A stretch of DNA of 64,000 bases from a virus (taxonomy: Duplodnaviria; Caudoviricetes): positions 160,001-224,000 of the IMG/VR virus record IMGVR_UViG_3300028805_000037; one strand, written 5' to 3'. The notes under the pieces were generated by a model that made no database searches, was not told where the DNA came from, and saw only the letters and a program-made list of their open reading frames with translations. Every line of letters begins with the position of its first letter. The first letter of the stretch is position 1. Both the position numbers and the translations under genes were made by a program. Below, piece after piece: positions 3,635 through 63,251 of the stretch.

Positions 3635-4246
3635 ATGCTTTTTCGTGGACGTAGATTAATAAAAACTACATTTGTAAGTATATTACAACAATTATTTACA
3701 AATGATCCTAAATTTCCATGGAATAAAAATGTATTACAAACAAAAATCTTTCTCGATGAAAGTTTTATGAGAAGTGATCGTAAATTCCCCTATATAGTAG
3801 TAACTGATGTAACTAATGACAATTTTTTTAAAACAAGCTTTGATAGAAATTATCAAACAGAAGTATATGATGATGAAGGAAATCTTAAAGGTACTCGTTA
3901 TGGTGGTGCTATGCATCCAAGTTTTAGATTAGAATTTGGTGCACTTAATATTTATGATCTTGAGATTATTATTGATAAAGTTGAATCATTTTTCGAATTT
4001 ACTGGTGTACAAAAATTACATGATGCTGGAATAGTAATTGAAAATATAAGTGATAGTGGAATAAATACAGAAACTTATGGTAAAGATAATGTATATATAT
4101 TAAGTATAACTTTTAATATATATACTGAATGGGAAAAATATATTACAGTTGAAGAAGCCGAACTTATTAATCAAGTTGAAGTAGAAAATATAACTATATA
4201 TGATAAAGATGATAATGTTTTACATATTGATAAACCTGGTGATTAG
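3635..4246 (+). CDS. putative tail terminator/completion protein
   Basis: FPYIVV motif, size, and position immediately before the sheath gene. Confidence 0.5.
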   Translation: MLFRGRRLIKTTFVSILQQLFTNDPKFPWNKNVLQTKIFLDESFMRSDRKFPYIVVTDVTNDNFFKTSFDRNYQTEVYDDEGNLKGTRYGGAMHPSFRLEFGALNIYDLEIIIDKVESFFEFTGVQKLHDAGIVIENISDSGINTETYGKDNVYILSITFNIYTEWEKYITVEEAELINQVEVENITIYDKDDNVLHIDKPGD

Positions 4247-4263
4247 CAAAGTAAAATTTAAAT

Positions 4264-4353
4264 TTCTATGAGAATTATTTTCTCTATACATTTCAACGAT
4301 GTTGTTTTACTACCAACTATCTCGATGTACATTTATGAATGATAGACTCACCC
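4264..4353 (-). ncRNA. TnpB omegaRNA (reRNA)-like scaffold, copy 1, overlapping the tnpB 3' end
   Basis: Overlaps the last ~12 codons of tnpB; homologous to 5535-5624 and 39111-39199 with covarying stems. Confidence 0.8.
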
Positions 4354-5456
4354 AAACTTTTTAAATTTAAAGCTGCATTTAAATCTCTATTTATTAAAGA
4401 ACCACAATTAGGACAAGTCCATTGTCTATCTTTTAATTGTAATTCTTTATATTTATAACCACAATTATTACAAATTTTAGAAGAAGCAAAAAATCTATCA
4501 GCAAATATTAAATACTTTCCTTTTCTTTTTAATTTATATTGTAATTGCCATATAAATTGAGCATAACCAAGATCATTTACTGATTTACCAAAAATTTTAC
4601 TCATTCCTTTTAAATTTAGAGATTCTACAACTATTATGTCATTTTCATTAACTAATTTATTACTTAAATTATGTAAAAAATTAGTTCTTTCATTAGTAAT
4701 ATGATAATGAATTCTACTGATTGATTTTCTCAGTTTTCTAAATCTATTACTATTATGTTTTTTCTTACTTATTTTTTTATTTAATTGTTTTAAATATTTT
4801 TCATATTTTCTATATAATCGTATATATTCTGGAGAATTATTATTTGAATCTATAAAAAATGATTGTAAACTCATATCTAAACCTAAAATTTTAGATTCAT
4901 CATTAATTTGTACTTGTTTAATATTAATATCTTGTTCAACATTAAAAGAAATAAAATAATGTTCTGAAGTATCTTTACTTATTGTAGCATGTTTAATTTT
5001 ACCTATTATTTTTCTTTTATCTTTATAATTTATCCATCCAACTATAGGTATTTTAATTTTATGATTATCATAATTAATTTTGATATTATTATTTATAAAT
5101 GATGTAGTATAAGAACCACCATATTTTTTCTTTTTAAATTGAGGAAAACCAAAATTATTTTTTACCTTTAATGATTTATAAAAATTATTATAAGCATCTT
5201 TTAAATTAACAAAAGTCCACATAAATGATTGTGAATCAACTTCATCCATAAATTTATATTCATTTTTTATTTGTTTTATTGTTTTATACTTATATTTATA
5301 TAATGTATTTTTATCATTTTTATATTTTTGATATATTTCTTTTCTTTCAGCTAACATTAAATTATACATTAATCTATTACAACCAATAGTTTTATCTATA
5401 AGTTCTTTTTGTTTATTATTAGGATAAATTCTAAATTTATAAGCAAATTGTTCCAT
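4317..5456 (-). CDS. tnpB: TnpB RNA-guided endonuclease (IS200/IS605-IS1341 type, no tnpA)
   Basis: N-terminal AYKFRIYPN HTH; RuvC D (GLDMS), E (VVESL), D (NRDLNAALNL); zinc finger CNNC/CPNC. Confidence 0.95.
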   Translation of the reverse strand: MEQFAYKFRIYPNNKQKELIDKTIGCNRLMYNLMLAERKEIYQKYKNDKNTLYKYKYKTIKQIKNEYKFMDEVDSQSFMWTFVNLKDAYNNFYKSLKVKNNFGFPQFKKKKYGGSYTTSFINNNIKINYDNHKIKIPIVGWINYKDKRKIIGKIKHATISKDTSEHYFISFNVEQDINIKQVQINDESKILGLDMSLQSFFIDSNNNSPEYIRLYRKYEKYLKQLNKKISKKKHNSNRFRKLRKSISRIHYHITNERTNFLHNLSNKLVNENDIIVVESLNLKGMSKIFGKSVNDLGYAQFIWQLQYKLKRKGKYLIFADRFFASSKICNNCGYKYKELQLKDRQWTCPNCGSLINRDLNAALNLKSLGESIIHKCTSR

Positions 5457-5534
5457 AATTTTTAAATTTAAATTAAGTTGAATTTAATATTTTATATCAT
5501 TTAATTAAGTGCATAATTTAAATTTAAAAAGATA

Positions 5535-5624
5535 GGACGAATCCATCGCTCTTAAATGTACATCGAGATAGGAAGTATTAAATTCCATCAATGAAATGTA
5601 TAGAGAAATAAAATTCTCATGGAG
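5535..5624 (+). ncRNA. stand-alone omegaRNA-like copy 2, in the leader of the tail sheath gene
   Basis: Shares AAATGTACATCGAGATA...GAAATGTATAGAGAA...TTCTCAT with copy 1; compensatory stem changes. Confidence 0.8.
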
Positions 5625-5659
5625 ATTTAAAATAGATTTTTAAATGTGAGGTAAAATAT

Positions 5660-7402
5660 ATGACAAGATTAGGGCCGGGAGTTTATACAGAAGATGGAGC
5701 AAATGCAAATTTAGCTTCTTCTTTATCAGGATTTAATATAACAGCAGTTATTGGTTTAGGTAAAAATTGGAAATTAATTAGTGATGTTGAAATAGTTAAA
5801 TCTGAACCTGAAACAAATGAACCTACAGCAAATGAATTACTTTATAGTAATGTAGTTGATACATTTATTGGTGATAAATTAATTCCATATACAACTTATG
5901 TTTTACCTATAACTTCTTCAAATGCTGGTTATTATAGAGTTAATTCATCAATACAAGGTGCTTTAGAAGTTGTAAGTAATGATACTGAAAATCCTACAGA
6001 TAAACAAATAAAAATTGAAAATGTTACACCTTGGCAAGAATCAGATTCAGTTGTTATTGGTGATTATGTAATTGAATGTAATGATGGTGATTATCTTGAA
6101 AGAGATGAAGATGTAACTGGAGTAAAATTTGTTATACCTACATTAAAAAATAATGATATAATTACTGATGCAAATGGAGCTGCAATAGATTTTGATGTTA
6201 TACAAAGTATAGTAAGTTTAGGAACACTTCCTGGATTAAATCAATATAATATAAATCAAGATTATATAATAGAAAAAATTTCTTCAGAAGATGAATTAAA
6301 TGGCAAAGCTCAAATAACTTGGTTATATAATAATTATCCTGCAGTTGGTAGCTCATTTTATATTACATATAAGCAATTAAAAGATGATAAAGATTATTCG
6401 CCTAAATATAAATATTCTACTGAATCTATAACTAATGATTATGGAGCTGAATATGATAATGGTGTTGTAAATTCATTATCATTAGCAGCAGATCTTGTTA
6501 TTGAAGGCCAGACTGTATTTGGTGGTGGAGTTCTTTGTTGTCAAGTAAAAGATAATACTCTTCAAGGTTGGAAAGATGCAATAGATAAACTTGATAGTAA
6601 AGTATTTAATACATATATATTAACAAATCAGCAAGGCGAATTTGGACAACAATTACAAACATATTTAAAAAGTAAAATTGAAATGTTATCAAGTATAACT
6701 TATAAATCTGAAAAGACAGCATTTTATATTCCATTTGATAAAGATATGGAAATAGAAACAATTAATGCTTATAGAGAAGCTTTAAATTCACAAAGAATAA
6801 CATTATTTGGTAATAAAACTTGTACAGTAGAACTTGTTGATAATACAACATTAGAAACTGAATTTGTAGAATTACCTTCAATTTATGCTTGTGCAAATCT
6901 TTCTGGTATTGAAGGAAATCCTGAATATACATTTAGTGAACCTATGTTAAGAAAGCAATTATCACCAAGAATAACATTTAATGAAGAACAAAGATATAAT
7001 CCTTCTGAAATGACTTCACTTGATAATAATGGCGTTAGTATATTTGATATGGATTTATTAACAAATATTTCTTATGTATATGTTATTGGTACCACTGATA
7101 TGACTAATGTTATAACCGAAACTAGAGCTGTTAGAAGAGAAACTGATTTACTTAGACAAAATGTAAGAAGAAATCTTAATCAATACATTGGTAAAAAGAA
7201 TAAACCTATAACTGCTGCTAGTGCTACTGAAACAACAAAAGCGATGTTAAGAAATTTTGTTAATATTGATGAGATAGCTGGATTTAGAGATGTTACATCT
7301 TGGTTTGATGAACAAGATCCAAGATTATTAAAACAATCATTCTGGTATTTAAGTTATTTGGAAACCAGATGGATTCATGTAACTATTGGAGCAGAAATTT
7401 AG
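5660..7402 (+). CDS. tail sheath protein
   Basis: N-terminal PGVYTE motif, TAVIG, C-terminal VRRETD; 580 aa. Confidence 0.9.
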   Translation: MTRLGPGVYTEDGANANLASSLSGFNITAVIGLGKNWKLISDVEIVKSEPETNEPTANELLYSNVVDTFIGDKLIPYTTYVLPITSSNAGYYRVNSSIQGALEVVSNDTENPTDKQIKIENVTPWQESDSVVIGDYVIECNDGDYLERDEDVTGVKFVIPTLKNNDIITDANGAAIDFDVIQSIVSLGTLPGLNQYNINQDYIIEKISSEDELNGKAQITWLYNNYPAVGSSFYITYKQLKDDKDYSPKYKYSTESITNDYGAEYDNGVVNSLSLAADLVIEGQTVFGGGVLCCQVKDNTLQGWKDAIDKLDSKVFNTYILTNQQGEFGQQLQTYLKSKIEMLSSITYKSEKTAFYIPFDKDMEIETINAYREALNSQRITLFGNKTCTVELVDNTTLETEFVELPSIYACANLSGIEGNPEYTFSEPMLRKQLSPRITFNEEQRYNPSEMTSLDNNGVSIFDMDLLTNISYVYVIGTTDMTNVITETRAVRRETDLLRQNVRRNLNQYIGKKNKPITAASATETTKAMLRNFVNIDEIAGFRDVTSWFDEQDPRLLKQSFWYLSYLETRWIHVTIGAEI

Positions 7403-7690: not shown

Positions 7691-7770
7691 AAATATATAA
7701 AATAATATAAAAAAATATAAAATTATTAAAACACTTTAATTTAAATTTAAAATAAATGAAGGAATAATAA

Positions 7771-8385
7771 ATGAAATCAAAACAAGTTTTAAAATTATTA
7801 CAAGTATCAAGAGTAACACTTTCAAAATATGTAAAGACTGGCTTAATTAAAGTAACAATGAAAAAAAATAAAACTTATGATTATGATGAAGATAGTATAT
7901 ATTCTTTTTTGGGAAAAAATAAAGTTGAAGAACAAAAATTAAATATAATTTATGCTAGAACTTCAAATCCACCTAAAAAATATGCTGAAGAGCAATCACA
8001 AAGAGTATTAAATTTTTGTACTTCTAAAGGTATACAAATAGATAAAATATTTATTGATGTTAAATCTGGAATGAATTTTCAAAGAATAGAATTTTTAAAA
8101 TTAATAGATTTAATAATTAATAATAAAGTAAAATTAGTAGTTATTGAAAATAAAGATAGATTAGTAAGATTTGGTTTTGAATTATTACAAGAATTATTTA
8201 AAAAGTTTGGATGTGAAATATTAATAGTAAACAATTTGTCTGAAAAAACTTATGAGCAAGAATTAACTGAAGATTTAATTTCAATAATACATTATTTTTC
8301 TATGAAATCATATTCTAATAGAAGAAAATTAAATAAAATTAAAGAAGAATTACAAAACAATGATAACATTAAAAATCAAATATAA
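7771..8385 (+). CDS. tnpA: IS607 transposase TnpA (MerR-like HTH plus serine recombinase)
   Basis: IIYARTS catalytic Ser; DVKSGMNFQR; ENKDRLVRFGFE; ELTEDLISIIHYFS. Confidence 0.95.
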   Translation: MKSKQVLKLLQVSRVTLSKYVKTGLIKVTMKKNKTYDYDEDSIYSFLGKNKVEEQKLNIIYARTSNPPKKYAEEQSQRVLNFCTSKGIQIDKIFIDVKSGMNFQRIEFLKLIDLIINNKVKLVVIENKDRLVRFGFELLQELFKKFGCEILIVNNLSEKTYEQELTEDLISIIHYFSMKSYSNRRKLNKIKEELQNNDNIKNQI

Positions 8386-9727: not shown

Positions 9728-9827
9728 ATTTATATTGTTTTAAATTGTTTTTGTTATTTAAATCAATTTAAAAATTGGTATAATAATTTAAATTTAAAAT
9801 AGATTTGTATAAGAGAGGTAAAAATAT

Positions 9828-10974: not shown

Positions 10975-11104
10975 ATATAACCTCCTTTATTTTATATAAT
11001 TATTATAATCAATTTTTAAAAAAATGTAAATAATGTAAATTTGTATTATATTATTCAAACTAAAAATTTAAATTTAAAATATGAGAAAAAAGGAGAGAAC
11101 AAAA

Positions 11105-30647: not shown

Positions 30648-30749
30648 TAAAAAACTATTAAAAATCATTAAATTTAATTTTATAATATATTATATAAAAT
30701 TTTTATCTTAATTTAAATTTAAAAATTATAAAGGAAATATTTATATATA

Positions 30750-31937
30750 ATGTATAGAGCTTATAAAATTCAAATTAAAGAAAATGATTATTTAAAACAA
30801 ATTACTATGTCATCTAATAATTTGTATAATTATGCATTATATAATGTTAGACAAAATTTCTTTAAAAATAAAACATTTTTAAATTATTTTGGTTTATATC
30901 CTATATGTAAAGAAAATGAAAATTATAAAAATTTACCTTCTCAAGCTGCTCAACAAGTATTAAAACAAGTTGATAATTCATTTAAATCATTTTTTCAGAC
31001 ATTAAAAGATTATAAAAAGAATCCTAAAAAATATAAATCTAGACCTAAGATTCCTAAATATAAAGAAAAATGTTCTAAAAATATAATAACAATACCAGGA
31101 CAAACTGCTTATAAAAAAGGTAATTATTTACAGTTTCCAAAAACAGATTTTAAAATATTTTTAGGTAAATTACAAATTAATAAAATAATAGAAGTTAAAA
31201 TAAAACCTTATAATAAATATTATGAAGTTTTTATAATATATGAAAAGGAGGATAAAAAACATGTAGAACAAAATGAAAATTATATTGGTATTGATTTAGG
31301 TATTAATAATTTTGTAACTATTACAAACAATATTGATAAGAATCCAATTATTGTTAAAGGCAAAGTAATTAAAAGTATAAATCAATATTATAATAAGAAA
31401 AAAGCAAAATTAATGTCTTATATTGGTAATAAAGGTACTTCTAATAAAATTGAAAAATTATCAAGAAAAAGAGAAAATAAAATTAATGATTATTTACATA
31501 ATGTTTCAAAAAGAATAATAAATTATTGTATTAATAATAATATTTCTAATATTGTTATTGGTTATAATAAAGGATGGAAACAAAATGTAGATATTGGTAA
31601 AGTTAATAATCAAAAATTTGTTAGTATGCCTTTTAATAGATTTATTAATCAATTACAATATAAGTCTGAAGAAGTAGGAATAAAATTAATTTTAAATAAT
31701 GAATCATATACATCAAAATGTGATGCGTTATGTTTAGAAGATTTAAAACATAAAGAAAATTATTTTGGTAAAAGAATAAAAAGAGGTTTATTTAAAACTA
31801 AAAATAATGAATTAATTAATGCTGATATTAATGGTTCATTAAATATTTTAAGAAAAGTAATTGGGAATGACTTTATAAGTTTACTCAATAGAGGGTTAGT
31901 TAAAAGCCCATTTAAAGTGAATTTTAATTCATTTTAA
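30750..31937 (+). CDS. tnpB: TnpB with rearranged RuvC-II (G at the canonical E; alternative E in ESYTSK), degenerate zinc finger, no tnpA
   Basis: GIDLGINN; IVIGYNKGWKQ; NESYTSKCD; INADINGSLNI. Confidence 0.92.
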   Translation: MYRAYKIQIKENDYLKQITMSSNNLYNYALYNVRQNFFKNKTFLNYFGLYPICKENENYKNLPSQAAQQVLKQVDNSFKSFFQTLKDYKKNPKKYKSRPKIPKYKEKCSKNIITIPGQTAYKKGNYLQFPKTDFKIFLGKLQINKIIEVKIKPYNKYYEVFIIYEKEDKKHVEQNENYIGIDLGINNFVTITNNIDKNPIIVKGKVIKSINQYYNKKKAKLMSYIGNKGTSNKIEKLSRKRENKINDYLHNVSKRIINYCINNNISNIVIGYNKGWKQNVDIGKVNNQKFVSMPFNRFINQLQYKSEEVGIKLILNNESYTSKCDALCLEDLKHKENYFGKRIKRGLFKTKNNELINADINGSLNILRKVIGNDFISLLNRGLVKSPFKVNFNSF

Positions 31938-34016: not shown

Positions 34017-34093
34017 ATATAAAATTTGTGCATAATTTTAATAATTTTTAAAATTTATTATAAATTTATAAAATACTTTAATTTAAATTTAAA

Positions 34094-35380
34094 ATGAAAA
34101 CAATAATTTTTAAAATCAAATTAAATAAAGAATTACAAAAAGTTATAGATGAAGATTCTAGAATATGTTCATCTATATATAGATTTGCGTTTAATAGATT
34201 TCAAGATAGATTATCAAATAAAGATAATTATATTTTAATATCTGAAAAATTTAAAGATGTTAATTGCCATTTAAGAAATTCTTCTTTACGAGCAGCTAAT
34301 AGTTTATTTAAAAAGTTAAAATTTACTAAAGGAGTAAAATTTGGCTTAGTAGATAAAATTAAAAAGGGCTTAATAACTAAAGAAGAATATAAACAATCTA
34401 GAAATGTAGGTATATTATCAGAAGGTGAATTCAATCAAAAAGGTAATAGATTATTTCAAATTGATTTAAAAAATAATTGTTTTATTTATAAAAGAAGTGT
34501 TAAAGAGCATTATAAATTAGAAATTATAGAAAAATTGAATAATAAAAGAAAACATATTTTACAAATTTTATATAATTTAATGATATCTAAAACAATTCCA
34601 GTAACTTTTAAATTAAAAAATGATTTAGTTTATATAACTTATGATGAATCTATAGTTGAAAAAGAAAAACAATTTAAAAATTTATTTAATAATAGAGTTT
34701 TAGGTATAGATTTAAATCCAAATTATTTTGGTTTATCAATTATAGAATTTAATCATAATAATAATTTTAAAATTATATTTAAACAAGTTATAGATTTAAA
34801 TGAATTACAAAATATTAATAATAAAAATAAAATTAAATATGAATTGCAACAAATAAATCATTATTTGATTAAATTATGTAAAAATTATCATGTTTCTAAA
34901 ATATCAGTTGAAGATTTAAAATTTAATCCTAAAAATAAATTTTGGAATAAAGATTTAAATAGATTATGTAAAAATAAATTTAGATATTCTATAATAAAAA
35001 ATCATTTAAAAACTTTATGTAATACTTATGGTGTTCAATATATAGAAGTAAATTCTTGTTATTCATCTATTATAGGTAACTTTAAATATGGCTCTGAAAA
35101 TTGTCCAGATATGATAGCTGCAAGTATAGAAATAGCAAGAAGATGCTATAAAAAGTTTGAAAAAGGTTGGTTCCAACCGATGTTTATTACTAAACAAAGA
35201 TTACAAAAAGTTTTAGGAAATCAATGGAAGAAAGAACTAAAACTAAGTTGTAAATCTTGGAAAGAACTAACTAGGAAAATTAAAGAACTTAAATTAAAAT
35301 ATAGGTTCCAGCTTATACCTTTAAATGCTGTCTTTAGTGTTTTTTATATAAAAAAGTTATATAAATTATATACTTTTTAA
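34094..35380 (+). CDS. tnpB: IS607-type TnpB-like nuclease without a zinc finger (paralogue of 8360-9727), no tnpA
   Basis: GIDLNPNYFG; SVEDL; YSSIIGN...PDMIAASIEIARR. Confidence 0.85.
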   Translation: MKTIIFKIKLNKELQKVIDEDSRICSSIYRFAFNRFQDRLSNKDNYILISEKFKDVNCHLRNSSLRAANSLFKKLKFTKGVKFGLVDKIKKGLITKEEYKQSRNVGILSEGEFNQKGNRLFQIDLKNNCFIYKRSVKEHYKLEIIEKLNNKRKHILQILYNLMISKTIPVTFKLKNDLVYITYDESIVEKEKQFKNLFNNRVLGIDLNPNYFGLSIIEFNHNNNFKIIFKQVIDLNELQNINNKNKIKYELQQINHYLIKLCKNYHVSKISVEDLKFNPKNKFWNKDLNRLCKNKFRYSIIKNHLKTLCNTYGVQYIEVNSCYSSIIGNFKYGSENCPDMIAASIEIARRCYKKFEKGWFQPMFITKQRLQKVLGNQWKKELKLSCKSWKELTRKIKELKLKYRFQLIPLNAVFSVFYIKKLYKLYTF

Positions 35381-38056: not shown

Positions 38057-38960
38057 ATTATTTTTATAATATATTATATAAAAATTTTTAATTTTTGTAA
38101 ATTTTTGAGTTTTGTATACTGGAGAGAAAAGTAGACGTGAATGAAGAAACCATTGTTTGTTAATGAGTTTGTTAAAAAATCAATTTCGACTTAACCATTT
38201 CTTTACTATTTCTAATATACTAAATATAATACAAATATATTATTTAAGGAATTCTTGACTATTATTCATAATACAAGCTTCAGCTTCAGACTTATACTAT
38301 ATAAGAAGTAGTAAGTAAGAATATCTATAAGTATTAGTAGATGAATTCTAATTCTAATTCTAATTCTAATTCTAATTCTAATTCTAATTCTAATTCTAAT
38401 TCTAATTCTAATTCAGACTTCTAATTTAGTTCTAGTATACCTTTGCTATACTTATTGATTAAGTTAAAATTAGTTTTTACTAATATATTTTCTTCTTATT
38501 CTTCTTATATATTTTACTCTGCAACAATAGTTATATATGTATGCATAGTAATTAGTCTTATATATTGGCATTATCTGTAGTCTTCACTTCGCCTATTAAG
38601 GTTACGTGCAACGGTTTTTACAGGTTACATGTCTATATATCTTTCTAATTTATAACCTAAGAGTACAACATTACTAGGATTTGCTTACCGAATAGCCTTG
38701 TTAGTATACTATTCTTAGGATCATTACTCCTTCATTGTTAGTAAGTAATCGCAATTAATAACATTATACCTATACCATTACTGGCATTCGTCTTTTGATT
38801 CTTTTTATAAAAAAGAATACTTACTATATATCAATTAAGATATATAATAAAGAAAAACGTTTAAACAAGAAAAAACAGTCATAATTACAAAGATCAGAAA
38901 TACTGATTTACTACAAATTTACTACTATTACTTCACAAACTACAATTATATATTATATAA
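38057..38960. other. long non-coding region at the divergent strand switch (candidate origin and/or large ncRNA)
   Basis: No ORF of 60 aa or more; hexamer array; several hairpins; flanking genes point away on both sides. Confidence 0.5.
38344..38414. repeat. (AATTCT)x11.8 tandem repeat
   Basis: Directly visible perfect hexamer array. Confidence 0.95.
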
Positions 38961-38962
38961 AA

Positions 38963-39097
38963 AATAAAAAAGCTTATAGAAATTTTGATTTTAAAACTTT
39001 GGTAAATTTTACTCAGCTTTCTATAAGCTTTATCAATATATTATATTAAATATATTCATTTTATATACTGAGTAAGGTTTTACCAATACCTTTTTAC
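38963..39097 (-). ncRNA. promoter plus hairpin-RNA element, family B copy 2
   Basis: 14-bp stem AAAGCTTATAGAAA/TTTCTATAAGCTTT plus T-tract; loop complementary to its upstream site 39068-39086; homologous to 7412-7550. Confidence 0.6.
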
Positions 39098-39110
39098 AAC
39101 TTTTTTAAAT

Positions 39111-39199
39111 TTCCATAAGAACTATTTTCTCTATACATTTCAACGATTCTATTTACTACTAGATATCTCGATGTACATTTAAGAACAATGGACTTGCCC
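39111..39199 (-). ncRNA. stand-alone omegaRNA-like copy 3
   Basis: Aligns end to end with 4264-4353 (one gap), with compensatory changes. Confidence 0.8.
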
Positions 39200-39250
39200 T
39201 TTATTTTTAAATTTAAATTAAAGCCCTCGGAGTTTCATTGATTTTGAAAA

Positions 39251-58513: not shown

Positions 58514-58546
58514 TAATATAAAGTAAATTTTTAAAGGAGAAGAAGA

Positions 58547-63168: not shown

Positions 63169-63251
63169 TCTTGGTAATTCCAAAATTTAAATTTAAAAAT
63201 TAGGACTTATAGAGTCCTTTTATATATAAATTTAATTTAGAGGTATATTTT

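What the first reader, a model, noticed from the sequence alone, without database searches (positions are those of the whole stretch)
4244..5644. One TnpB, three compact guide-RNA scaffolds: stand-alone omegaRNA cassettes whose guides begin with the phage's late-promoter motif
Seen in sequence: a ~90-nt element overlaps the tnpB 3' end (4264-4353, -) and recurs without any ORF at 5535-5624 (+) and 39111-39199 (-). Differences are largely compensatory. The 5' stem reads GGGTGA/TCATTC, GGACGA/TCGCTC (one mismatch) and GGGCAA/TTGTTC. The inner stem reads GTTG/CAAC, GGAA/TTCC and TCTA/TAGA. TACAT/ATGTA and GAGAA/TTCT(C/T) are constant. The 5' loop (TCTA, TCCA, TCCA) covaries with the 3' end (TAGA, TGGA, TGGA), giving a pseudoknot. 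Established: in TnpB reRNAs a pseudoknot with the last scaffold nucleotides immediately precedes the guide, and the target is TAM plus guide match. Inference: the guides are ATTTAAATTTTACTTT, ATTTAAAATAGATTTT and ATTTAAAAAAGTTGTA. Removing each insert (4264-5467, 5522-5624, 39111-39212) leaves TTTAA|ATTTAAA, i.e. TAM TTTAA plus the guide match, which is the palindrome found before the structural genes. This would be an RNA-guided homing or phage-exclusion system aimed at late promoters, with ~100-bp guide cassettes served in trans by a single catalytically intact TnpB. The scaffold/guide boundary is inferred; ATTTAAA could instead belong to the scaffold.
Basis: partly seen in the sequence, partly recalled or inferred. 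Interest (0 to 1): 0.92.

Follow-up and report, generated by a model that had tools for sequence, protein, structure and literature searches.

The report
Phage TnpB with solo guide RNAs
A 300-kb phage from ruminant gut carries an RNA-guided nuclease gene (tnpB) and three copies of its 90-base guide-RNA scaffold, two of them gene-less. All sit in inserts that split a palindromic phage promoter at its centre, as close relatives without the inserts show, so this is a well-documented new variant of a known selfish "homing" element, not a new kind of system.

Summary
Three ~90-nt copies (4264-4353 -, 5535-5624 +, 39111-39199 -) are the only ones in the 300-kb genome. They fold into four helices plus a pseudoknot, and these covary across 16 relatives. 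This is the omegaRNA scaffold of an intact ISDra2-like TnpB (4317-5456).

Close relatives supply real empty alleles. L083 has one intact TTTAAATTTAAA motif where the window holds a single ~1.36-kb composite insert: scaffold A, tnpB, filler, then inverted scaffold B. L084 has one intact motif where the window holds the 102-bp solo C.

- A, tnpB and B are one insert, not two.
- The window holds a second, divergent TnpB-family gene (30750-31937), and the genome holds four.
- In relatives the guides are mostly not promoter halves.

The most likely mechanism is TnpB homing into uninterrupted promoters of co-infecting relatives, with solos using TnpB in trans. This is inferred, not shown. Caveats are 15/16 guide matches elsewhere in the phage's own genome and the absence of RNA data.

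Stand-alone omegaRNAs acting in trans are already published, and this scan has found them in phages on other DNA. Verdict: new variant of a known kind, moderate interest.

The parts
4317..5456 (-). tnpB, 379 aa, ISDra2-like RNA-guided nuclease with intact RuvC triad and zinc finger
   Evidence: Pfam PF12323, PF01385 and PF07282. Full-length alignment to ISDra2 TnpB 8bf8, E 9e-64. D194, E278 and D358 are invariant in 16 homologues.
4264..4353 (-). omegaRNA scaffold A, overlapping the last 12 codons of tnpB
   Evidence: Model R1 gives 103.6 bits. The MFE fold gives the same four helices, z -3.4.
4244..4263 (-). Inferred guide A: the flank reading into the left half of the split promoter and the end of the 203-aa gene
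   Evidence: Sequence similarity among copies and relatives ends at GAA. The flank is collinear with the left arm of the empty allele L083.
4360..4372 (-). Perfect promoter-like motif inside the tnpB codons (A-L-N-L-K), 6 nt upstream of scaffold A
   Evidence: The motif is imperfect in the 69%-identical relatives L013 and L017.
5461..5473 (-). Promoter-like motif 4 nt upstream of the tnpB ATG, with no Shine-Dalgarno sequence
   Evidence: The same arrangement is seen in L012, L013 and L207.
5474..5516 (.). Filler between the two motifs. It is absent from the empty allele and partly resembles the left-end region of the L012 element.
5517..5529 (+). Promoter-like motif 6 nt upstream of scaffold B. 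After the insertion it is the only full motif left in front of the sheath-paralogue gene 5660-7402.
5535..5624 (+). Solo omegaRNA scaffold B, inverted relative to A
   Evidence: R1 gives 95.4 bits. Strain variants in two runs carry structure-preserving changes at 5539/5547, 5550 and 5564.
5625..5644 (+). Inferred guide B: the right half of the split promoter plus the 5' leader of gene 5660
   Evidence: Collinear with the right arm of L083.
4263..5625 (.). Composite insert relative to the empty allele. Boundaries are ambiguous by up to 4 nt because of the short repeat ATTT.
   Evidence: In L083 the 203-aa and 580-aa genes, 94-97% identical in nucleotides, lie 45 nt apart with a single motif. 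The contigs of P0122 and P0124 also have the two genes adjacent.
39205..39217 (-). Promoter-like motif 6 nt upstream of scaffold C
39111..39199 (-). Solo omegaRNA scaffold C
   Evidence: R1 gives 102.4 bits. It is 86% identical to the solo in L012.
39091..39110 (-). Inferred guide C
   Evidence: Collinear with the empty allele L084.
39110..39211 (-). 102-bp solo insert relative to the empty allele L084
   Evidence: BLAST gap at 39113-39204 with a 10-nt overlap. L084 has one intact motif and no R1 hit.
9787..9807 (+). The phage's own promoter that matches TTTAA plus 15 of the 16 nt of guide B: a possible self-target
11067..11078 (+). Intact motif at the site where relative L013 carries a tnpB element (empty in the window)
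   Evidence: Synteny of the tail genes and collinear flanks.
63169..63251 (+). Intergenic region, with the motif at 63186, where relative L012 carries its tnpB element (empty in the window)
58514..58546 (+). Intergenic region where relative L012 carries a solo scaffold (empty in the window, with no motif here)

Best explanation
**What the repeat is.** It is the ~90-nt omegaRNA (reRNA) scaffold of an ISDra2-like TnpB lineage living in AT-rich jumbo phages of ruminant gut. Copy A is the right end of the intact tnpB. Copies B and C are gene-less solos.

**Shown.**
- Both loci are insertions at or next to the dyad of the palindromic promoter-like motif TTTAAA|TTTAAA.
- Locus 1 is a single ~1.36-kb composite with inverted scaffolds at both ends, their 3' ends facing outward.
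- Locus 2 is a 102-bp solo.
- Every scaffold has a full copy of the motif 6 nt upstream.

**Inferred.**
- Each RNA is transcribed from that motif. B then also forms the 5' leader of the sheath-paralogue mRNA, which keeps that gene expressed.
- Each RNA is bound by the one cognate TnpB, and B and C are bound in trans.
- Each RNA carries as its guide the flanking half-promoter plus locus-specific sequence.
- The complex would recognise TAM TTTAA(A) plus that flank, which is the uninterrupted promoter of a related phage lacking the insert. It would not recognise the occupied allele, where the TAM is displaced.
- In a mixed infection the cut would be repaired from the occupied genome, copying the insert (homing) and penalising the competitor.
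- Solos probably began as incomplete copies or deletions between the junction motif and the identical motif inside the tnpB 3' end. They have since persisted as a lineage of their own.
For: **Scaffold identity and structure.** Three copies only, with strong covariation and a pseudoknot. ISDra2 omegaRNA has the same logic, with a pseudoknot just 5' of the guide (PMC10097598).

**Intact nuclease.**

**Real empty alleles.** L083 for A/tnpB/B and L084 for C. Conversely, the window is empty where L013 and L012 carry elements.

**TAM-like flank.**
- The left-end flank ends in TTTAAA in L012, L207, L013, L017, L024 and solos B and C, and in ATTAAA for the window's tnpB.
- TTTAA is an experimentally known TAM for ISAam1 (PMC12908284).

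**Motif spacing.** 6 nt in all three copies.

**Solos are a conserved lineage.**
- They share A(-1)/T18 where tnpB-linked copies have T(-1)/A18. This is a covarying seventh P1 pair.
- B and C are only 78% alike, yet every helix is kept.
- In two other runs, B carries G5-C13 to A-U and C30.A58 to U-A changes.

**Insertion-site bias.** Only about 24 of 171 intergenic TTTAAA hexamers are promoter dyads, yet both insertion sites here and the L013 site are dyads.

**Published precedent.** Stand-alone omegaRNAs working in trans are published (PMC10691335 citing Altae-Tran 2021; Meers 2023, 10.1101/2023.03.14.532601).
Against: - There are no RNA data, so no transcript, RNA ends, RNA-protein complex or cleavage has been shown.
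- The TAM is inferred only from flanks.
- With TAM TTTAA the phage's own genome has near-perfect targets. Guide B matches 15/16 at window 9792 and guide A matches 15/16 at genome 260595. Guide A also has 12/12 seed matches at five more of the phage's own promoters.
- The only empty alleles found do not match the guides beyond nt 8 (B and C, one-base indel at position 9) or nt 11 (A). These particular phages would probably not be cut.
- The filler at 5474-5516 and the actual left-end boundary of the window's tnpB unit (flank ATTAAA) do not fit a clean single insertion.
- The L012 solo sits at a site without the motif and is followed by about 40 nt of extra DNA.
- B and C are 76-82% identical to A, so compatibility with this TnpB is assumed.
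Confidence: 0.6

Rival explanations
1. B and C are inert relics. They are right-end leftovers of tnpB elements that lost the gene by deletion between two copies of the 13-nt motif, and they are neither loaded by TnpB nor selected.
For: - The solos begin exactly at the motif that also lies inside the tnpB 3' end, as a direct-repeat deletion would leave them.
- Solos are rare. Only one more was found in the flanks of about 70 related loci: L012:13335-13423, in a messy context.
- Other follow-ups in this scan judged some phage orphans to be relics.
Against: - All helices and the pseudoknot are kept in three solos that are only 76-86% alike.
- Strain variants of B change both sides of pairs.
- The three solos share A(-1)/T18, which argues for one propagating solo lineage and against three separate deletions.
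- Each solo in the window retains a full motif at the same 6-nt spacing.
Confidence: 0.2
2. The inserts are placed by a recombinase or transposase rather than by TnpB-driven homing. Candidates are the phage's IS607-type serine recombinase (7771-8385) or a host Y1 TnpA acting in trans. TnpB would at most help retention.
For: - A 204-aa HTH plus Resolvase protein lies 2.1 kb from the composite insert and has its own motif (phrog_6620 'transposase' 1e-46, PF00239).
- If the scaffolds end at GAA/GAG, both junctions share the central dinucleotide AT of the palindrome. A serine-recombinase crossover would leave this pattern.
- Spread of solos to new sites, where the old guide cannot match, needs some non-homing step.
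Against: - The recombinase gene sits at the same place in L013, which differs in its inserts, and apparently in L083 (partial gene; homology not tested), so it is not part of the element.
- The genome has no intact Y1 TnpA, only a 39-residue fragment beside another tnpB.
- The solos have no inverted or subterminal repeats that would mark two recombinase-bound ends.
- The AT overlap disappears if the scaffolds end one base later.
Confidence: 0.15
3. The RNAs serve regulation rather than cleavage. Through 11-12-nt partial matches, TnpB-omegaRNA complexes bind the phage's own late promoters without cutting and so tune late transcription.
For: - Guide A matches 12/12 seed positions at six of the phage's own promoters.
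- In ISDge10 TnpB, indel formation falls as the guide is shortened from 14 nt, and a 10-nt guide binds without detectable cutting (PMC13507860).
- TnpB-derived RNA-guided repressors (TldR) exist in phages (10.1101/2023.11.30.569447).
Against: - The catalytic triad is intact and invariant in the lineage, unlike TldR.
- The matches follow simply from insertion into a consensus motif.
- The insertion polymorphism points to a mobile, selfish element.
Confidence: 0.05

Closest known systems
ISDra2 TnpB with its omegaRNA/reRNA (IS200/IS605, tnpB-only IS1341-type elements)
   Same: - Full-length homology, E 9e-64, with the same domains and triad.
- The RNA overlaps the gene's 3' end.
- The scaffold has several stems and a pseudoknot pairing a 5' loop with the nucleotides just before the guide (PMC10097598).
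- The guide is the flank outside the right end.
   Different: - The scaffold is about 90 nt against 116 nt.
- Only 37 nt overlap the ORF.
- There is no TnpA in the genome.
- The left end is very short and carries a phage promoter-like motif 2-4 nt from the ATG.
- The likely TAM is TTTAA(A), not TTGAT.
Stand-alone omegaRNAs and PATE-like gene-less IS200/IS605 elements (Altae-Tran 2021 as summarised in PMC10691335; Meers 2023)
   Same: These are gene-less copies of the scaffold with their own flanking guide, in a genome that also has the effector. Published work shows that such RNAs can work in trans.
   Different: - The solos here have no recognisable left-end palindrome.
- They carry a 12-18-nt leader that regenerates a phage promoter.
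- They sit in promoter dyads.
- One forms an inverted pair with the tnpB-linked copy at a single palindromic site.
Free-standing homing endonuclease genes of T4-like phages (intronless homing, marker exclusion)
   Same: They are present or absent between close phages at fixed intergenic sites. The expected action is against the empty allele during co-infection (review PMC13565253).
   Different: Target recognition here would be RNA-guided and encoded by the flank. The self allele is protected by the loss of the TAM, not by sequence differences in a nearby gene.
ISAam1 TnpB
   Same: Compact TnpB of similar size with an experimentally determined TAM of 5'-TTTAA (PMC12908284).
   Different: It is bacterial, IS-borne and not linked to promoters.
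TldR, nuclease-dead TnpB-derived RNA-guided repressors encoded by prophages
   Same: A phage-borne TnpB relative whose guides match promoter DNA.
   Different: TldR lacks RuvC catalysis and targets host promoters. Here the triad is intact and the matched promoters are the phage's own kind.

Membership tests
TnpB (OMEGA RNA-guided nuclease) | HTH_OrfB_IS605, OrfB_IS605 (RuvC) and zinc-ribbon TNB domains | tested here: met
   PF12323 1e-16, PF01385 2e-17, PF07282 2e-20.
TnpB (OMEGA RNA-guided nuclease) | RuvC D-E-D catalytic residues present | tested here: met
   D194, E278 and D358 align with the ISDra2 catalytic motifs and are invariant in 16 homologues.
TnpB (OMEGA RNA-guided nuclease) | Structured RNA overlapping the gene's 3' end, with a pseudoknot next to the guide | tested here: met
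   Covariation. Five complementary pseudoknot variants.
TnpB (OMEGA RNA-guided nuclease) | RNA-guided, TAM-dependent DNA cleavage | not testable with these tools
   Only the flank pattern is available: TTTAAA lies 5' of the left end in most contexts.
IS200/IS605 transposon mobilised by Y1 TnpA | Y1 (HUH) transposase in the element or the genome | tested here: not met
   Only a 39/121-position fragment with a stop codon, beside a different tnpB.
IS200/IS605 transposon mobilised by Y1 TnpA | Insertion 3' of a fixed short motif without target duplication | tested here: inconclusive
   The empty alleles allow either a clean insertion at TTTAAA|TTTAAA or a 2-nt AT overlap. The boundaries are ambiguous by up to 4 nt.
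IS200/IS605 transposon mobilised by Y1 TnpA | Subterminal hairpins at both the left and right ends | tested here: inconclusive
   The left end is only about 10-16 nt plus the motif. No dedicated search for a hairpin was made.
Stand-alone omegaRNA / PATE-like gene-less element | Complete scaffold, no ORF, own flank as guide, and a cognate effector elsewhere in the genome | tested here: met
   B and C are full-length R1 matches with no ORF. tnpB lies 80 nt from B and 34 kb from C.
Stand-alone omegaRNA / PATE-like gene-less element | Presence/absence polymorphism showing mobilisation | tested here: met
   Empty alleles L083 and L084. The L012 solo is absent from the window.
Stand-alone omegaRNA / PATE-like gene-less element | Use by the effector in trans | not testable with these tools
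   Indirect only: structure is conserved within the solo lineage.
TldR (nuclease-dead TnpB repressor) | Loss of RuvC catalytic residues | tested here: not met
   The triad is intact.

The most novel reading that the evidence does not exclude
The phage runs a small distributed guide set. One nuclease gene serves several separately transcribed guide genes, each driven by the phage's own late promoter and each planted in a late promoter. The purpose would be to cut the matching uninterrupted promoters of competing relatives late in mixed infections. The insert brings its own promoter, so it costs the carrier nothing. This would be a natural step between a transposon's fixed guide and a CRISPR-like array of trans-acting guides, used for phage-against-phage conflict.
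Probability: 0.2. Interest if true: 0.8.

Novelty: new variant of a known kind. Interest (0 to 1): 0.55.

Why it matters
If the inferred mechanism holds, this is a compact natural case of a TnpB element behaving as an RNA-guided homing gene between lytic phages without any transposase. It would have three unusual features:
- It targets the dyad of the phage's own promoter palindrome.
- It restores the promoter it splits.
- At one site it carries a guide RNA at each end, so that both arms of the empty site are addressed.

It also offers a ~90-nt natural omegaRNA, well defined by covariation, for a 379-aa nuclease. That is of practical interest for compact genome editors. Finally, the matched occupied and empty alleles make a homing test straightforward.

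Tried and rejected
- **Rfam.** No hit at gathering thresholds in the window.
- **Single-protein scans of IMG/VR** with TnpB and with the sheath paralogue found nothing. An alignment-based scan gave 56 loci at 53% identity or less. Only L027, L028 and L038 among them gave R1 hits, and these were weak and tnpB-linked.
- **Exact 17-mer of the scaffold in IMG/VR.** No match.
- **Loose 14-base solo pattern.** It gave 116 or more chance hits, and none of the 80 loci returned fits the model.
- **Stricter gapped pattern.** It found two more tnpB-linked copies (L207, L210) and a distant orphan present on three IMG/VR contigs (L215-L217).
- **Genome contigs** was not scanned.
- **Sequencing runs.** No RNA holder is listed. 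The runs laid were contigs only, so they showed no reliable joints for empty alleles. The many low-side joints came from unrelated AT-rich contigs and were ignored.
- **No DNA held.** The contigs carrying P0122 and P0124 showed gene order only.
- **Helix 30-32/55-57.** Proposed by me, it is only 60% paired on 16 sequences and should not be counted.
- **Clean left-end boundary for the window's tnpB unit.** I tried to define one and could not. The 5474-5516 filler remains unexplained.
- **The two other tnpB genes outside the window** have unrelated 3' ends and no R1 hit, so I rejected them as partners of B and C.
Full report
**Setting.** The window is bases 160,001-224,000 of a 300,445-bp IMG/VR phage record that is estimated 98% complete. 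GC content is about 22% in the window. Near-identical DNA occurs in sheep and bovine gut metagenomes. The window encodes tail, baseplate, helicase, DNA polymerase and terminase-like genes.

**The repeat is real.** The three copies align over about 90 nt, and pairwise identity is 76-82%. BLAST over the genome and a covariance model built here (R1) find exactly these three copies, at 95-104 bits. The ORF at 4317-5456 is a TnpB.
- It has all three Pfam domains.
- It aligns over its full length to ISDra2 TnpB, E 9e-64.
- The RuvC Asp, Glu and Asp and both CxxC pairs are in place. D194, E278 and D358 are invariant among 16 homologues.

**Structure.** I fetched homologous tnpB loci of 55-88% protein identity from public assemblies and compared their 3' ends.
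Slid controls give at most 45%.
- On 16 distinct sequences, including distant relatives, P1, the long-range P2 and the inner P3 pair in 99-100% of cells. Eighteen pairs change on both sides, and the covariation score is 0.60 against 0.23 for shuffles.
- The 5'-loop/3'-tail pseudoknot occurs as TCTA/TAGA, TCCA/TGGA, CAGA/TCTG, GGTC/GACC and GGCT/AGCC.
- Single-sequence folding reproduces the four helices in A, C and the L012 solo. In B the pseudoknot pairing displaces P1.

This is the architecture solved for ISDra2 omegaRNA, where a pseudoknot pairs a 5' segment with nucleotides -5 to -3 before the guide (PMC10097598). Similarity among all copies stops at GA(A/G).

**The motif.** TTTAAATTTAAA occurs 12 times in the window against about 1 expected and 27 times in the genome. 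In 24 cases it reads TTTAAATTTAAAA on the + strand. It precedes tail and baseplate genes among others, and most copies lie 0-55 nt upstream of the next start codon. The only three in minus orientation are the one before tnpB, the one inside the tnpB codons ahead of scaffold A, and the one ahead of C. All three scaffolds have the motif exactly 6 nt upstream. That it is a promoter, and a late one, is inference from position.

**Empty alleles.** This is the decisive evidence.
- *Locus 1.* Contig L083 carries the 203-aa and 580-aa genes at 94% and 97% nucleotide identity, separated by only 45 nt with one intact motif. Its left and right arms are collinear with the window's flanks at 4262 and 5626. 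Everything from about 4263 to 5625 is therefore inserted: reverse-complemented scaffold A, tnpB, a motif, a 43-nt filler, a motif and scaffold B. The two scaffolds form an inverted pair with their 3' ends outward.
- *The reverse cases.* L012 (TnpB 88% identical) is syntenic with window 57.6-64 kb. Its tnpB element lies where the window has the intact intergenic region 63169-63251. It also holds a fourth solo, L012:13335-13423 (83.5 bits), where the window has a 33-nt intergenic region without any motif. L013 has a tnpB element at the site of the window's intact motif at 11067.

**Ends and TAM.** Comparing elements in different contexts (L012 with L207, L013 with L024, L017 with L024) places the left end about 25-40 nt upstream of the ATG. 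It is always preceded by TTTAAA, except for ATTAAA in the window's copy. The right flanks vary: TTTAAA three times in the window, then TTAAAA, TTTTTA, TTCATA, TGATAC, TGAAAT and TTGTTA elsewhere. This is the usual pattern of a fixed TAM and a free guide. TTTAA is the measured TAM of ISAam1 TnpB (PMC12908284). Only about 24 of 171 intergenic TTTAAA hexamers are promoter dyads, so hitting dyads at both sites here and at the L013 site is not explained by the TAM alone.

**Are the solos functional?**
- B, C and the L012 solo share T at scaffold position 18 and A at -1. All close tnpB-linked copies have A18, constrained by a His codon, and T at -1. This is a seventh P1 pair that covaries.
- C and the L012 solo are 86% alike, while B and C are 78% alike with every helix kept.
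- Contigs from two other studies carry B with G5-C13 changed to A-U, G2.U16 to G-C and C30.A58 to U-A.

This favours a solo lineage under selection for structure and therefore use in trans. Gene conversion from linked copies cannot be excluded, because B shares its P3 with the L012 tnpB copy. A distant orphan of the same family, with no tnpB within 6 kb, also exists on three IMG/VR contigs of 44% GC.

**Mechanism.** The most economical reading is TnpB homing between co-infecting phages. The complex would recognise TTTAA(A) plus flank in the uninterrupted promoter, while the occupied allele lacks the TAM at that spot. Because the insert brings a full motif, the downstream sheath-paralogue gene keeps a promoter. 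Solos would arise when copying or recombination jumps between the junction motif and the identical 13 nt inside the tnpB 3' end. That internal motif is perfect only in the window/L012/L207/L210 lineage, which is the only AT-rich lineage in which solos were seen. All of this is inference.

**Caveats.**
- With TAM TTTAA, guide B matches 15/16 at the phage's own promoter at 9792 and guide A matches 15/16 at genome 260595. Guide A also has 12/12 seed matches at five more of the phage's own promoters. In ISDge10 TnpB, indel formation falls as the guide is shortened from 14 nt and is undetectable with a 10-nt guide (PMC13507860). The 12-nt matches may therefore be harmless, but the 15-nt ones are a problem for an active nuclease.
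- The empty alleles found differ from guides B and C by a one-base indel at position 9, and from guide A from position 12. This fits surviving resistant alleles. It equally means that no cleavable natural target has been seen.
- No Y1 transposase is present. An IS607-type serine recombinase at 7771-8385 is a possible alternative agent of insertion.
- The window also holds a second, very divergent TnpB-family gene at 30750-31937, and the genome holds two more. None has a related 3' end.

**Comparison with the literature.** Stand-alone omegaRNAs that are mobilised and work in trans with compatible effectors are described (PMC10691335, citing Altae-Tran 2021). PATE-like gene-less IS605 elements encoding omegaRNAs are noted by Meers et al. 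(10.1101/2023.03.14.532601). Homing into co-infecting phages is discussed as a concept (PMC13565253). My searches found no paper on a phage TnpB element that targets promoter dyads or carries a guide RNA at each end. Other reports of this scan describe solo omegaRNAs in phages on other DNA.

**Verdict.** This is a new variant of a known kind, of moderate interest.

Noticed in passing
window 30750-31937 (+): A second TnpB-family gene of 395 aa (PF01385 4e-23, PF07282 2e-10, phrog_506), with the motif at 30712 upstream. It is only 28% identical to the first TnpB over the RuvC part. In the pairwise alignment the RuvC-II Glu and the zinc-finger cysteines do not line up, so it may be nuclease-impaired.
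   Followed up: partly
window 7771-8385 (+): A 204-aa HTH plus Resolvase protein with the architecture of an IS607-type serine transposase (phrog_6620 1e-46). The motif at 7740 precedes it. A 204-aa gene occupies the same place before the sheath gene in relative L013.
   Followed up: partly
genome C1:251522-251638 (outside the window): A fragment of a Y1 transposase (39 of 121 profile positions, one stop codon) directly upstream of another tnpB at 251635-252726: a decayed IS605.
   Followed up: no
window 38057-39110 (-): About 1 kb without ORFs downstream of solo C. It contains a (GAATTA)n array near 38345-38420, a GC-richer stretch at about 38560-38800 and a terminator-like hairpin at 38960-39025. 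The sequence just after guide C resembles the AAGGTATTG...ACCTT leaders seen after motifs at genome 257688 and 262428.
   Followed up: no
L215:8187-8274, L216:64-151, L217:7817-7904: The same orphan scaffold of this RNA family (48 bits, pseudoknot GGTC/GACC kept) on three IMG/VR contigs of about 44% GC, with no tnpB within 6-7 kb.
   Followed up: partly
L014:7276-7290 versus L013:11216-11225: Two otherwise identical tnpB loci differ by a 10-nt insertion (AGAAGTTATA) exactly at the scaffold/guide junction, which gives them different guides.
   Followed up: no
window 34082-34096 and 5454-5473: The motif abuts the start codon (0 nt at 34094, 4 nt at tnpB) with no Shine-Dalgarno sequence. This suggests leaderless mRNAs and a transcription start inside or just after the motif.
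   Followed up: no
window 5625-5640 versus run X4: The strain in run X4 has several small deletions in the guide-B region (at 5626, 5630 and 5637). The inferred guide is therefore more variable between strains than the scaffold.
   Followed up: no
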